Notes under the pieces: generated by a model | Told to the model about the DNA's origin: nothing | Seen by the model: the letters and a program-made list of their open reading frames with translations, nothing else | The model's database searches: none | Part shown: piece by piece, positions 1,323 through 63,590 of the stretch | How positions within the stretch are numbered: the first letter of the stretch is position 1 | How the letters are laid out: every line of letters starts with the position of its first letter | Assembly: GCA_951406725.2 (NCBI GenBank) | Contig: OX597827.1 | Span: 32,736,001 to 32,800,000, forward strand | Reading direction: 5' to 3' | Length of the DNA stretch: 64,000 nt | Origin: Octopus vulgaris | Lineage: Eukaryota | Made by a program: the position numbers and the translations under genes

Positions 1323-3626
1323 TGTTTCGTTTTAATATTAAGATTGAAGAAATCGACCTTGTTCGTAAAAAAATTTAGACTTTGGTTTGCACCCCTTAAG
1401 CAAATTTCATTCCGGCACTTATGCAAACCATTTCCCCTTCAGCAGATAGACAAGCATCCTTCTGATACAAATTGTTGCTGTTGTTGTTTAACCCCAGGTA
1501 GGGCTCTCACCCAAAACACCTATGGTCAAAGACATTCCAGTCGCAATCAGTCCAGCATAGTATGACCGAACGGTTAACAAGTTTGCTTCGCAAACATGAG
1601 ACCCCAGGTTCGATTCTACTGCGTTCGATCAGCAACTGTCATTTTCTATAACCTCGACTCGACTCACACATGGTGAGTAAAAATTCGTTAACGGAAACTG
1701 TAGAGAAGTCCTTCAGCTGAATTGTACTTGTAATTCAAGAAAATACAGCCCTGTCACACTCTTTCTCAACCTGACTCTACCTAAGATGCGAATTACTTTA
1801 AGGGCGCGCGTGTCTGTGGAATACTCGGCCATTTGCAAATTATTTCAAGAGTAGGTTTATCTAGTTCATCAAACAACCGAATACGCATTGTTGAGTGACG
1901 GAGATCCACTAATGTGTCTAGTACTTCATTATACAATATGCTTCTTGGTAATGCTTTTGTCGCTTAGCCTCGGACCAGTCTGCGTCCAGCTGATCAAAGA
2001 CATCATTCCAGCTGTGACCATATTATAACTTTTTATGTCCACCATTTTAAAAACAGTATGTGGCGTGACTTGAAGATTATTTTAGTGGCTATTTCTAGCA
2101 AGTTCATCAACCACATAGTGACTCTTTCGCTGTCCTTACACCGACTAAGGATTTTAACCTGCGACCTATAAGCTGATAGTTAAATACTTTATCCATTCGG
2201 TTATTCTCTCTATGCCACCAGTCAAATCACGCTTTCAGTATGTCTGCCGAATGGAATGTTATCACGTTGGGTGTCGTCTGCTCGGATAGTCCATCCACTA
2301 TGTTATTATTGATTGAATTTTAACTTGGGCAGGTATGTATACATATATATACATATATGTGTGTGTGTGTGTGTTGGGAGCGTGAATGTATGTATGTTTG
2401 CGTGTACGTATGACTGCGTCTGTTTGGGTTTATATATATAAATATGTGTGTGTGTACGCTCATATGTGTATGAGTGTATATCAGGGGGGGGGGGAATACA
2501 CGCACACATTCACATACGCACGCACACACACACACACACACACACACACACACACACACACACACACACTCGCCGTTTATTTTAAGAACAACGAACTTTA
2601 AACATTGCATTCGACAAACAATACACTTACGCATTGACTCATAGCGACACATACAGTCAGTCTTTCTCTCTTGCCCATTCTCTCACTCTTCAGCTCTTTC
2701 TCTCATTCACTCTCCATTAACCCCCTTCTCTCTATCGATACATACATGTGTGTGTGTGTGTGTGTGTATCTATGTATTTCTTTCTCTCTCTCTCTCTCTC
2801 TCTCTCTCTATATATATATATATATATATATATATATATATATACGTATGTATCTTGCTGTCATCCACTCTCTGCTTCTTATACTCTCTCTCTCTCTCTC
2901 TTTCTCTTTCCTACGCATGTATACAAAAGAGATAATGGCGAGAAAGAAAAAAAGAAAAGGAGAAGGAAACATGTTGAATTACCAATTATATGAAACTGAA
3001 CAAAAAGCTAATGTACTAATGGCGAGAGGAAGAGGGGGGAGGTGGGTGTGATTTATCGATTATTTCACGGCAGTTGTTATGTTGTTTAGCCCTAGGTATT
3101 CCTTGCTGCAACCCTTCCATGATCAAAAGCACATGCAATCATAACTCTTCTTTTAATTCCTCTTTTATCTTTCTCTTGTTTTCCGTCATTGCACTGCGGC
3201 CATGCTGGGGCACATCTTTGAACAAATGGACCCCCCCCCAATACATACTTTTTAAGCTTGGCACTTATTCTGTTGGCTACTTTTGCCAAACAGTTACGTC
3301 ACTAGGATGCAAACAAACCAACACTGGTTGTCAAGGGGTGGTGAGTGACAAACATAAATCACATAAACACAAATACACACACACATACAGACACACAAAC
3401 ACAGAAAGAACAAGAGAAGTGAGGTGAGCAAACATGCTTATTCTATTCGTTTACAGCTGTTTCATAACTTTGTCAGTTATATAATAGGTGTTACATCATT
3501 TTGATGAATTGTATCCTTTGTTTTCATCACTTTGGTCTCATCGTTTCTCTGTATGTTGGTGTTCCTTGACTTTACAAATCACTCTTACTTTCATAAAAGT
3601 GAAATAATTTCCTTGTGTGTGTGTGT

Positions 3627-4115
3627 ATTAATAATGAGAAATACTTCAAGGATTGCGATTTTATATTTTTATTAATACATTGCTACATATGTTTCGGCAT
3701 GGCATGTATTTTTATGGGACCAGCTCACAATGTCCATAGGATATTATTAAATATTATTTATTTAATAAATTTGCTTGTTGTTTAGATTTCCGGTTATTAG
3801 TCATCCTATACCAACCAAAAAGTTCTGTTAGATTAATGAATAGTCTTGTGAATTCTTGCAGACTACTAGATAGTTTGGTGTATTAATAGAGGCAAAAGGA
3901 AATCCCACGAAAATTAATGCAAAAATTGCTTGAAGAAGTATGCATGTCGAATTAATGGGCCCCCATATGGTCTTTGGATATTATAAATAATATTTAATAA
4001 TATCCTATGGATATGGTGATGTAGTCCCATAAAAATACGTTATGCTGAAACATATGTAGCAACACATTAATAAAAATATAAAGTCTCCATCTGTGAAGCA
4101 TTTCATGCTATTAAT
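3627..4115. mobile_element. Fold-back element with ~135-bp inverted arms carrying degenerate hammerhead motifs (Penelope-like pLTR)
   Basis: Arms ~3627-3762 and ~3983-4115 are reverse complements. Each contains GAAAC-ATAT-GTA (3684-3695 minus; 4047-4058 plus) followed by AATAAA. Confidence 0.6.
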
Positions 4116-4249
4116 GTATTTATCCTAACTCAGCAGGTTGAGAATAATATACGGCAGCCAGCAACAAGCAACATAGGAGCTTTTATGAGCACACTGGTAG
4201 GCATTTGCCATGTACAAAATACAAAGATATCTTTTAGCTTTTTTTTTAT

Positions 4250-62608: not shown

Positions 62609-63155
62609 TGAGGTCTGATCCAAAAGTATCAGAACTGGTGTGATGGTAACAGAACTAAAGAACACAGAGTAAAGCCATTTAATACAGATGAACCTTCAAC
62701 TCTGTGACGCATGCACACACTAAGTGACAATGTTGCCCACTCACTTCTGTTTGTTCATAGCAGTGCCTGGAAGTGAAGTGTGTAGAATGCTGGTCGTCTC
62801 AAAAAGAGGAATGGGTTTCAGCAGCAGCACAGGATCTCTTTTATTGCATGGAGGAAGACAAAAGACTTTTTGAGAATGGTCAGAACAGGTGATGAATTGT
62901 GCGTCTGTGGCTACGACCTCAAAACCAAAATCAAATCCCAATTGAAAGGAACAAGATTTGAAGATGGCAAGGAAATCCACGAGAATGCAACGAGGCAACA
63001 GCTTGCTATCCCAAAAATGGAGTTCAAGGAATGCTTCCATCGATGGAAACAATGTGACTTCAGACAAGGACTACTTTGAAGGAGATTAAATAAATTGATG
63101 TGTATTGTAGCTTTCTTTTATAGCACCAGAACTGAAATTCTTTGATCAGATCTCA
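62609..63155 (+). mobile_element. Internally deleted mariner element
   Basis: TA|TGAGGTCTGATCCAAAAG ... TTTGATCAGATCTCA|TA TIRs; encodes KIKSQLKGTRFED...FKECFHRWK..GDYFEGD, the mariner C-terminus. Confidence 0.85.
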
Positions 63156-63590
63156 TACATACACACTCAAATAGCTATACATACATACATATATATATAT
63201 ATATATATATATATATATATATGTATATATGTATATATATATATATATATATATATATGTGTGTGTGTGTGTGTGTATAGATAGATAAATACATAGATAG
63301 AAGATAGGCAAATAGATGGAAACATGCACACACACACACTACATATATATATATATATGTAAATGAAGCACATCTGCATATTTCAGTTCTCCAAGTATAT
63401 GTCTGTAGGCTTTACGATCCATATAAAAGTAATATTTTTTATTCTCCAGCTGATGGATGACCAATGGCAGATTTATTCTATGTTTTCCTACAAGTATAGC
63501 AATGTGACTCCAATAGGTAAAGAAACACATGTAATATGGAATACACAATACCAAAATTTTCCAGTTTTCTGTTTTTATATATGTATACAC

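What the first reader, a model, noticed from the sequence alone, without database searches (positions are those of the whole stretch)
3452..63533. Window-wide superfamily of diverse HHR-bearing short elements
At least ten sequence-divergent loci share all or part of the architecture CUGANGA-like core / hairpin / GAAAC-short or palindromic stem III-GUH. Loci: 4839(+), 24200(+), 24608(-), 36396(-), 42023(+), 42751(+), 49600(+), 50600-50700, 60725(+); 3' halves only at 3452(-), 3684/4047, 44990, 55557(-), 63522. Several are followed by AATAAA and a related tail (AATAAA..T(T)AC.CT/C.CCACTG..A/GAGTAC/GCAC at 4750-4785, 45034-45072 and 50525-50565) and sit in (TA)n. Structure conserved while sequence diverges suggests a large PLE-mobilised, microsatellite-associated ribozyme element superfamily that is probably under-annotated.
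Basis: partly seen in the sequence, partly recalled or inferred. Interest (0 to 1): 0.8.

Follow-up and report, generated by a model that had tools for sequence, protein, structure and literature searches.

The report
Hammerhead-bearing Penelope retrotransposon ends in octopus
This stretch of octopus DNA holds about ten short insertions with hammerhead-ribozyme motifs that are likely the broken-off ends of Penelope-like jumping genes, an association already in print; one very abundant family carries an unusual core letter that is predicted to weaken self-cutting.

Summary
The observation largely holds. The window is octopus DNA. Two loci have intact type I hammerhead cores and stems (4845, 42027), against 0.01-0.03 expected in shuffles. 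About eight more insertions carry degenerate or half motifs. 63522 is unsupported; 60725, 3463 and 55568 are doubtful.

Six insertions are head-to-head inverted pairs. One arm stops at or near AAT beside a microsatellite; the other has a longer tail. This is the published footprint of Penelope-like elements (PLEs). Several motifs match the published Hydra-clade PLE hammerheads, which target (TA)n and are known in Octopus. The others fit the minimal PLE hammerhead consensus. So this is not a new superfamily but the ends of at least two PLE types.

Possibly new: in the family at 24205/49604 (roughly 10^4 copies), about 86% of read depth has U at core position 6. No PLE coding sequence was found next to any locus, and cleavage and expression are untested.

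The parts
3627..4150 (.). Inverted PLE-type insertion: short arm 3627-3761 (-) with a 3' half motif at 3695-3684; long arm (+) with tail after 4115
   Evidence: arms 83% identical; outer end of tail approximate
3930..4058 (+). Type I hammerhead, core TTGAAGA (C3U), 110-nt stem II region, palindromic stem III, 4-bp stem I
3761..3883 (+). Possible decayed C-terminus of a PLE endonuclease (41 codons); resemblance by eye only
   Evidence: no database support
4708..4903 (.). Inverted insertion (arms 97% identical) between two (TA)n runs; 72-nt tail on the left only, holding AATAAA and the shared hairpin
4845..4883 (+). Intact type I hammerhead of Hydra-clade pattern; inverted twin with core at 4836 (-)
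24133..24328 (+). Short element between (TA)n runs; minimal hammerhead 24205-24232 with U at core position 6
24583..24694 (-). Short element; hammerhead 24664-24614 with U4C, 6-bp stem I, 4+1+4 stem III; ends AAT then (AC)n
25053..25332 (.). Inverted insertion of the U3-A8 family; minimal hammerhead 25183-25153 (-); tail of about 57 nt on the right only
36396..36432 (-). Degenerate hammerhead-like motif (intact CTGATGA, 5-bp stem II, A15.1U, broken stem I); probable
42027..42099 (+). Intact type I hammerhead, 54-nt stem II region, palindromic stem III
42700..42845 (+). Short element after (AAT)15; stem II and 3' half (42775-42785) present, 5' half of the core missing in this copy
   Evidence: family consensus not tested
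44957..45113 (.). Perfect 64-nt palindrome of two 3' half motifs (44991-45003 +, 44986-44974 -), then a tail of about 93 nt with AATAAA and hairpin (45034-45072)
49530..49722 (+). Second copy of the U6 family; motif 49604-49631, decayed in this copy; ends in (TA)15
50504..50722 (.). Inverted insertion; core-like 50657, 3' half 50688-50700 of Hydra-1_Obim type, stem I absent; 56-nt tail on the left ending in (AT)17
63591..63915 (.). Inverted insertion of the U3-A8 family; minimal hammerheads at 63717 (-) and 63732 (+); tail on the right only
3453..3463 (-). 3' half only, identical to 42088-42098; uncertain
55558..55568 (-). 3' half only, identical to 42088-42098; uncertain
60725..60793 (+). Both core boxes present, but stems I and III fail; doubtful

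Best explanation
These are short insertions with hammerhead motifs that are likely the 5'-truncated 3' ends of Penelope-like retrotransposons of at least two types (Hydra-clade and minimal-hammerhead), likely inserted by the PLE reverse transcriptase-endonuclease into AT-rich microsatellites. SHOWN in the sequence and reads: the motifs, the head-to-head inverted pairs, the tail on one arm only, the short arm ending at or near AAT beside a microsatellite, variable inversion points among other copies, and high copy number for one family. INFERRED from PLE biochemistry (PMC11167929): the endonuclease nicks both strands of AT-rich DNA, and reverse transcription starts at two nearby internal sites of the RNA, giving one cDNA with the tail and one without. 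Both cDNAs abort early and are joined head to head. The hammerhead lies 30-150 nt from the RNA's priming end, so even the shortest insertions would keep it. That would explain many unrelated hammerheads in 64 kb. Most genomic copies are likely dead fossils: they are mutated, and the inverted pairs are predicted to fold into long hairpins that hide the motif.
For: (1) In 6 of 6 hammerhead-bearing inverted units one arm has an extra tail (56-93 nt in five, about 35 nt and poorly bounded at 4115). The short arm ends at AAT plus 0-1 nt in 5 of 6 (4 of 5 families) and at AATAAA in the sixth; AAT frequency is 2.8%. Craig 2021 describes inverted 5'-truncated copies with a tail at one end. (2) Other copies of the 50560-50722 family join the two arms at different points: five joints shown of 66, each in a single contig of single-copy depth. 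(3) Craig 2021 File S2 lists Hydra-clade hammerheads with an extra base after the first core box, an extra base before GAA, and a 4+1+4 or 4+2+4 stem III. Its entries 'actc a gagt' (Penelope-3_HM) and 'acca a tggt' (Hydra-1_oBim) are identical to stem III at 44991 and 50688, and nearly all Hydra families target (TA)n. Reads put U before GAA at 50687 in 89-94% of depth. (4) The shared tail resembles, by eye, the CTC-hairpin-GAGCAC stretch at the 3' ends of Hydra-2_Amil, Hydra-2_Ajap and Hydra-1_Crog. (5) 24205 and the U3-A8 family fit the minimal PLE hammerhead consensus: U-rich leader, one bulged base, G10.1-C11.1, palindromic 15.2-16.2. U3-A8 cores and opposite-strand pairs 100-700 bp apart were reported there. 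(6) Shuffle statistics.
Against: No PLE RT or GIY-YIG domain was found in 150 translated stretches of the window (148 of 232 filtered ORFs plus two others). The one candidate coding remnant (3761-3883) got no support. No locus is therefore tied to an autonomous element by its own sequence. The Hydra comparison was by eye. Folding z-scores are mostly unremarkable (-2.4 to +1.1), and the lowest-energy fold of 42027 is not the hammerhead. No covariation test could be run. Only two families were read in other copies. A LINE-like fragment at 29352-29765 is also an inverted pair ending in AAT repeats, so inversion alone is not specific to PLEs.
Confidence: 0.85

Rival explanations
1. Some families (above all the U6 family) are dedicated non-autonomous short elements of fixed length that borrow the PLE enzyme, like solo retrozymes or SINEs, rather than truncated autonomous copies. 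This is compatible with the best explanation in mechanism.
For: The U6 family is about 160-200 nt between microsatellites in both window copies. Its depth rises about 20-fold at 49580, and loose ends before 49562 agree poorly (0.39), so there is no single shared upstream continuation. No ORF remnants. Retrozymes are argued to derive from PLE pLTRs, and O. vulgaris has 893 recently active unclassified SINE families.
Against: No tandem hammerhead units in the window. Inversion points vary among copies of the 50560 family. Low agreement can come from indels in a pyrimidine tract.
Confidence: 0.35
2. The palindromes are MITE-like or foldback DNA elements inserted at TA, and the hammerhead motifs are incidental.
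For: Inverted arms, TA-rich flanks, no ORF; a real TA-flanked MITE-like repeat lies at 50070-50470.
Against: The ends are asymmetric (tail on one side), centres vary between copies, unrelated families share the core boxes and the published stem III pattern, and non-inverted copies exist (24205, 42027, 49604).
Confidence: 0.05
3. The motifs are chance matches in AT-rich repetitive DNA.
For: True for 63522 and possible for 60725, 3463 and 55568. Relaxed descriptors are not enriched. A chance-looking hit at 383(+) scores as high as real ones. No Rfam hit.
Against: Strict descriptor 2 vs 0.01-0.03; 7 independent symmetric halves vs 1.3-2.7; reads restore G12 and C15.2 in the family majority.
Confidence: 0.03

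Closest known systems
Hydra-clade PLE hammerheads (Craig et al. 2021, PMC8557442, File S2; includes Hydra-1_Obim of Octopus bimaculoides)
   Same: Extra base after CTGANGA and before GAA, 4-bp symmetric stem III, (TA)n target, position near the 3' end, inverted 5'-truncated copies, similar 3' hairpin in several published consensus ends.
   Different: The window's loci are other families than Hydra-1_Obim (stems I and II and the 3' end differ by eye). Two have long stem II regions (54 and 110 nt), and none has an ORF here.
Minimal hammerheads of metazoan PLEs (Cervera and de la Pena 2014, PMC4209133)
   Same: No helix III, palindromic 15.2-16.2 pair, bulged base, G10.1-C11.1, U3-A8 covariant core, dispersed single copies and opposite-strand pairs; molluscan examples listed (Lottia, Crassostrea).
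   Different: U at position 6 as the family majority was not seen in the parts read. Octopus had 0 occurrences in the searchable supplement; one supplement file could not be searched.
Non-LTR retrozymes (Cervera and de la Pena 2020, PMC7229834; Li et al. 2026 preprint)
   Same: Short, non-coding, type I hammerhead, proposed PLE origin.
   Different: Retrozymes are head-to-tail tandem repeats that yield circles. These are single or head-to-head, which cannot release a unit by two cuts on one strand.
A6C core variant of phage Bcep176 (PMC3088659, PMC7151607)
   Same: Change at core position 6; reported low activity in Mg2+ and rescue by Mn2+.
   Different: Here the majority base is U, in a high-copy animal retroelement family; activity untested.

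Membership tests
Type I hammerhead ribozyme | Core CUGANGA / GAAA / UH with stems I-III in type I order | tested here: met
   Fully met at 4845 and 42027; met with U3-A8 at 25183 and 63717; one deviation at 3930, 24205, 24664; not met at 60725, 63522, 42775 and 50657 as they stand
Type I hammerhead ribozyme | Match to an Rfam hammerhead model | tested here: not met
   none at E<=10 for four loci
Type I hammerhead ribozyme | Covariation in stems across copies | tested here: inconclusive
   Only 2-3 copies per family in the window; the read table gives majority letters, not linked pairs
Type I hammerhead ribozyme | Self-cleavage at the UH site | not testable with these tools
   Only contigs were available; no RNA ends
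Penelope-like elements (EN+) | Inverted 5'-truncated copy with a tail at one end only | tested here: met
   6 of 6 inverted units; variable joints in other copies
Penelope-like elements (EN+) | RT plus GIY-YIG ORF upstream of the pLTR | tested here: inconclusive
   None in the window, as expected for short truncated ends; candidate remnant unsupported; genome not held
Penelope-like elements (EN+) | Insertion in AT-rich microsatellites | tested here: met
   5 of 6 short-arm ends and three single elements within 5 nt; five other loci not
Hydra clade of PLEs | Hammerhead pattern of File S2 (extra bases, 4-bp symmetric stem III) | tested here: met
   By eye for 4845, 24664, 42027, 44991, 50688, 3930; stem III loops of 0 and 7-8 nt differ from the 1-3 nt listed
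Hydra clade of PLEs | Protein motifs (RWK, DKT, CxCX5C, no CCHH) and RT phylogeny | not testable with these tools
   No ORF linked to any locus
Non-LTR retrozymes | Head-to-tail tandem units each with a hammerhead | tested here: not met
   No tandem array covers a hammerhead; units are single or inverted
Non-LTR retrozymes | Circular RNA | not testable with these tools
   No raw RNA reads offered

The most novel reading that the evidence does not exclude
The family at 24205/49604 spread to roughly ten thousand copies with U fixed at core position 6. It is a non-autonomous PLE passenger whose hammerhead fold is kept as a recognition handle, or as a weak metal- or protein-gated switch, rather than as a free-running cutter. 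It would be a natural genome-scale test of whether PLE transposition needs ribozyme cleavage.
Probability: 0.3. Interest if true: 0.55.

Novelty: new member of a known kind. Interest (0 to 1): 0.32.

Why it matters
As it stands this extends a known association to more octopus families. About ten remnants in 64 kb would mean several hundred thousand per genome if this one window were typical (2.8 Gb implied; weak extrapolation), and Rfam does not see them. Two points are usable. First, the consistent short-arm end at AAT and the conserved 3' hairpin mark the likely priming sites of Hydra-clade elements, which have not been studied biochemically in the papers read. Second, the U6 family offers a test of the open question of what PLE hammerheads are for; in vitro, cleavage was dispensable for insertion. 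The inverted pairs are also predicted to form long double-stranded RNA if transcribed, which could feed RNA editing in octopus (recalled background, not tested).

Tried and rejected
No whole genome is held, so no genome-wide scan was possible. Rfam gave only microsatellite- or hairpin-driven miRNA hits below threshold; 57 of 207 rows were not shown. The Pfam scan found only a mariner transposase fragment; the remaining 84 of 232 filtered ORFs were not scanned. The candidate endonuclease remnant got nothing from the Atlas (best 0.77), from phmmer on 1.84 billion representatives (0 hits) or from the word search (0 of 3 candidates); it is kept only as a hint. 383(+) scores high in my ad hoc descriptor but has G5C and a long stem III, and I set it aside as likely chance. 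63522, 280, 928, 2966 and 48484 were rejected as lone short palindromes. An alternative register for 24205 (core read three bases later) was rejected because stem I and the G10.1-C11.1 stem are lost. Run X11 holds the U6 family and this locus's flank, but its RNA status is a guess, so it is not counted as expression. Family motifs were not found in the Craig or O. vulgaris supplements; line breaks could hide a match, and the O. vulgaris repeat library is not held. Earlier-findings searches by place, sequence and long word list gave nothing.
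Full report
CONTEXT. The window is 37% GC and full of microsatellites. Its one clear host coding stretch (28007-28843, +) is 99% identical to an uncharacterised Octopus bimaculoides protein and 82% to Argonauta, so this is Octopus DNA; the species is not determined. No whole genome is held. Whether the elements are intronic or intergenic was not established.

ANATOMY. Self-comparison shows six hammerhead-bearing head-to-head units: 3627-4115, 4780-4903, 25053-25275, 44957-45020, 50560-50722 and 63591-63860. 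In each, one arm stops and meets a microsatellite, while the other runs on for a tail (56-93 nt in five cases, about 35 nt and poorly bounded at 4115) before mostly TA-rich repeats. The short arm ends at AAT plus 0-1 matching base in five units (four of five families) and at AATAAA in the sixth; AAT makes up 2.8% of trimers. The AAT is present in both arms, so it is element sequence. The tails of three unrelated bodies (4785-, 45034+, 50565-) are alike, and in two a CTC...GAG hairpin is predicted. Whole units fold back 65-95% paired.

OTHER COPIES. Contigs of four public runs (three coded organisms) were laid on 49380-50860 at 80% likeness. For the 24205/49604 family, summed depth is 5.4-6.3e5 in two DNA runs, whose individual contigs show about 24-78, and 6.6-8.1e4 against 4-11 in a third. 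That suggests on the order of 10^4 copies; the tool warns this is no true copy number. Majority letters restore G12 (49624 G in 70-78% of depth) and C15.2 (49628 C in 66-75%). They put U at position 6 (49607 T in 83-89%); A is not among the 40 rows shown (32 were not shown) and must be under about 17%. The family majority therefore reads CUGUUGA in an otherwise perfect minimal hammerhead. For the 50560-50722 family, single-copy contigs join the arms at 50569-50684, 50576-50657, 50578-50689, 50579-50674 and 50582-50657 (five of 15 joints shown; 51 not shown). The tail bin (50530-50579) is 21-47 times deeper than the next bin in three runs, which suggests many families share the tail. One contig seen in two runs carries letters before 50657 that would give a 4-bp stem I; this is a hint only. 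No RNA ends could be read.

WHAT IT IS. Craig et al. 2021 (PMC8557442; passages, section 11 and supplement parts 2, 52, 53 read) describe PLE insertions as 5'-truncated, often with an inverted truncated copy and a 30-40 bp tail at one end. They define the Hydra clade, with (TA)n targets and a complete member in O. bimaculoides. Their hammerhead table has the extra base after the first box, the extra base before GAA and the 4+1+4 or 4+2+4 stem III seen at 4845, 24664, 44991 and 50688, and in 4+0+4 form at 42027 and 3930. Two stem III sequences are identical to listed ones. The 3' ends of three published Hydra consensus sequences carry a hairpin resembling the shared tail (by eye). Cervera and de la Pena 2014 (PMC4209133; parts 1-2 of 4 and supplement passages) describe the minimal form, the U3-A8 core, thousands of dispersed single copies and opposite-strand pairs 100-700 bp apart. 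That covers 24205/49604, 42775 and the 25183 family. Frangieh et al. 2024 (PMC11167929; parts 1-3 of 4) show that a PLE protein cuts and extends both strands, prefers 5'-ATT-3', starts reverse transcription at two internal sites that bound the tail, and does not need hammerhead cleavage in vitro. The mechanism I propose follows from that: two nicks, two aborted cDNAs from the two start sites, joined head to head. The AAT end may reflect primer microhomology or re-cutting of the element's own ATT; both are inference, and that paper found no homology at the start site for its own element.

WHAT IS MISSING. No locus is tied to a PLE ORF. The 41 codons upstream of 3930 recall the last endonuclease motif of Hydra ORFs by eye only. 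Truncated autonomous copies cannot be told from dedicated non-autonomous elements. Covariation, cleavage, expression and circles are untested.

NOVELTY. The association is known. A 2026 repeat annotation of O. vulgaris (PMC13282606; passages and a small supplement) has 190 PLE families covering 6.83% and no mention of ribozymes in the main text; its repeat library was not visible, so these families may already be in it. Searches for octopus with hammerhead and ribozyme, non-autonomous palindromic PLEs, Hydra clade with hammerhead and family motifs (15 of 333 rows listed, all for the 7-letter term) showed no paper on octopus hammerhead families beyond Craig 2021; subscription journals and Repbase are not covered. 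For position 6, passages of PMC3088659 and PMC7151607 report natural A6C with low Mg2+ activity and Mn2+ rescue; 'A6U' had 0 occurrences in the latter, and one search listed nothing on it. The retrozyme preprint (part 1 of 5 and passages; supplements not seen) and PMC7229834 (passages) concern tandem units, which these are not.

VERDICT. Real, mostly explained: new members of a known kind, with one core variant worth a bench test. Interest 0.32.

Noticed in passing
window 29352-29765: A 174-nt inverted pair (96% complementary) of a LINE-like 3' end, both arms running into (AAT)n; the translated end recalls Dong/R4-type elements (recalled label). A related fragment lies at 10716-10772.
   Followed up: partly
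window 50070-50470: High-copy repeat flanked by TA runs with short imperfect terminal inverted repeats (MITE-like); depth 1e4-8e4.
   Followed up: partly
window 19796-20347 (-), also 19394-19696 and 62744-63076: Decayed Tc1/mariner transposase pieces; Pfam Transposase_1 E 6.6e-19 for the first, the others by eye.
   Followed up: no
window 27923-28846 (+): Apparently single-exon host ORF without a Pfam domain, with relatives found only in cephalopods among named hits (59-99% identity, 5 hits).
   Followed up: partly
window 24652-24694: Upstream of the 24664(-) core lies a stretch complementary to the motif's own loop II; it may be a short inversion remnant or a loop-loop contact.
   Followed up: no
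window 32042-32565, 11938-12341, 23036-23349, 35510-35980: Tandem arrays with periods 61/123, 39/117, 30 and 253 nt; none contains a hammerhead hit.
   Followed up: no
window 31544-31990, 45035-45453, 29867-30817, 47295-47638: LINE-like C-terminal coding remnants by eye, no Pfam hit; the one at about 45115 abuts the 44957 element's tail.
   Followed up: no
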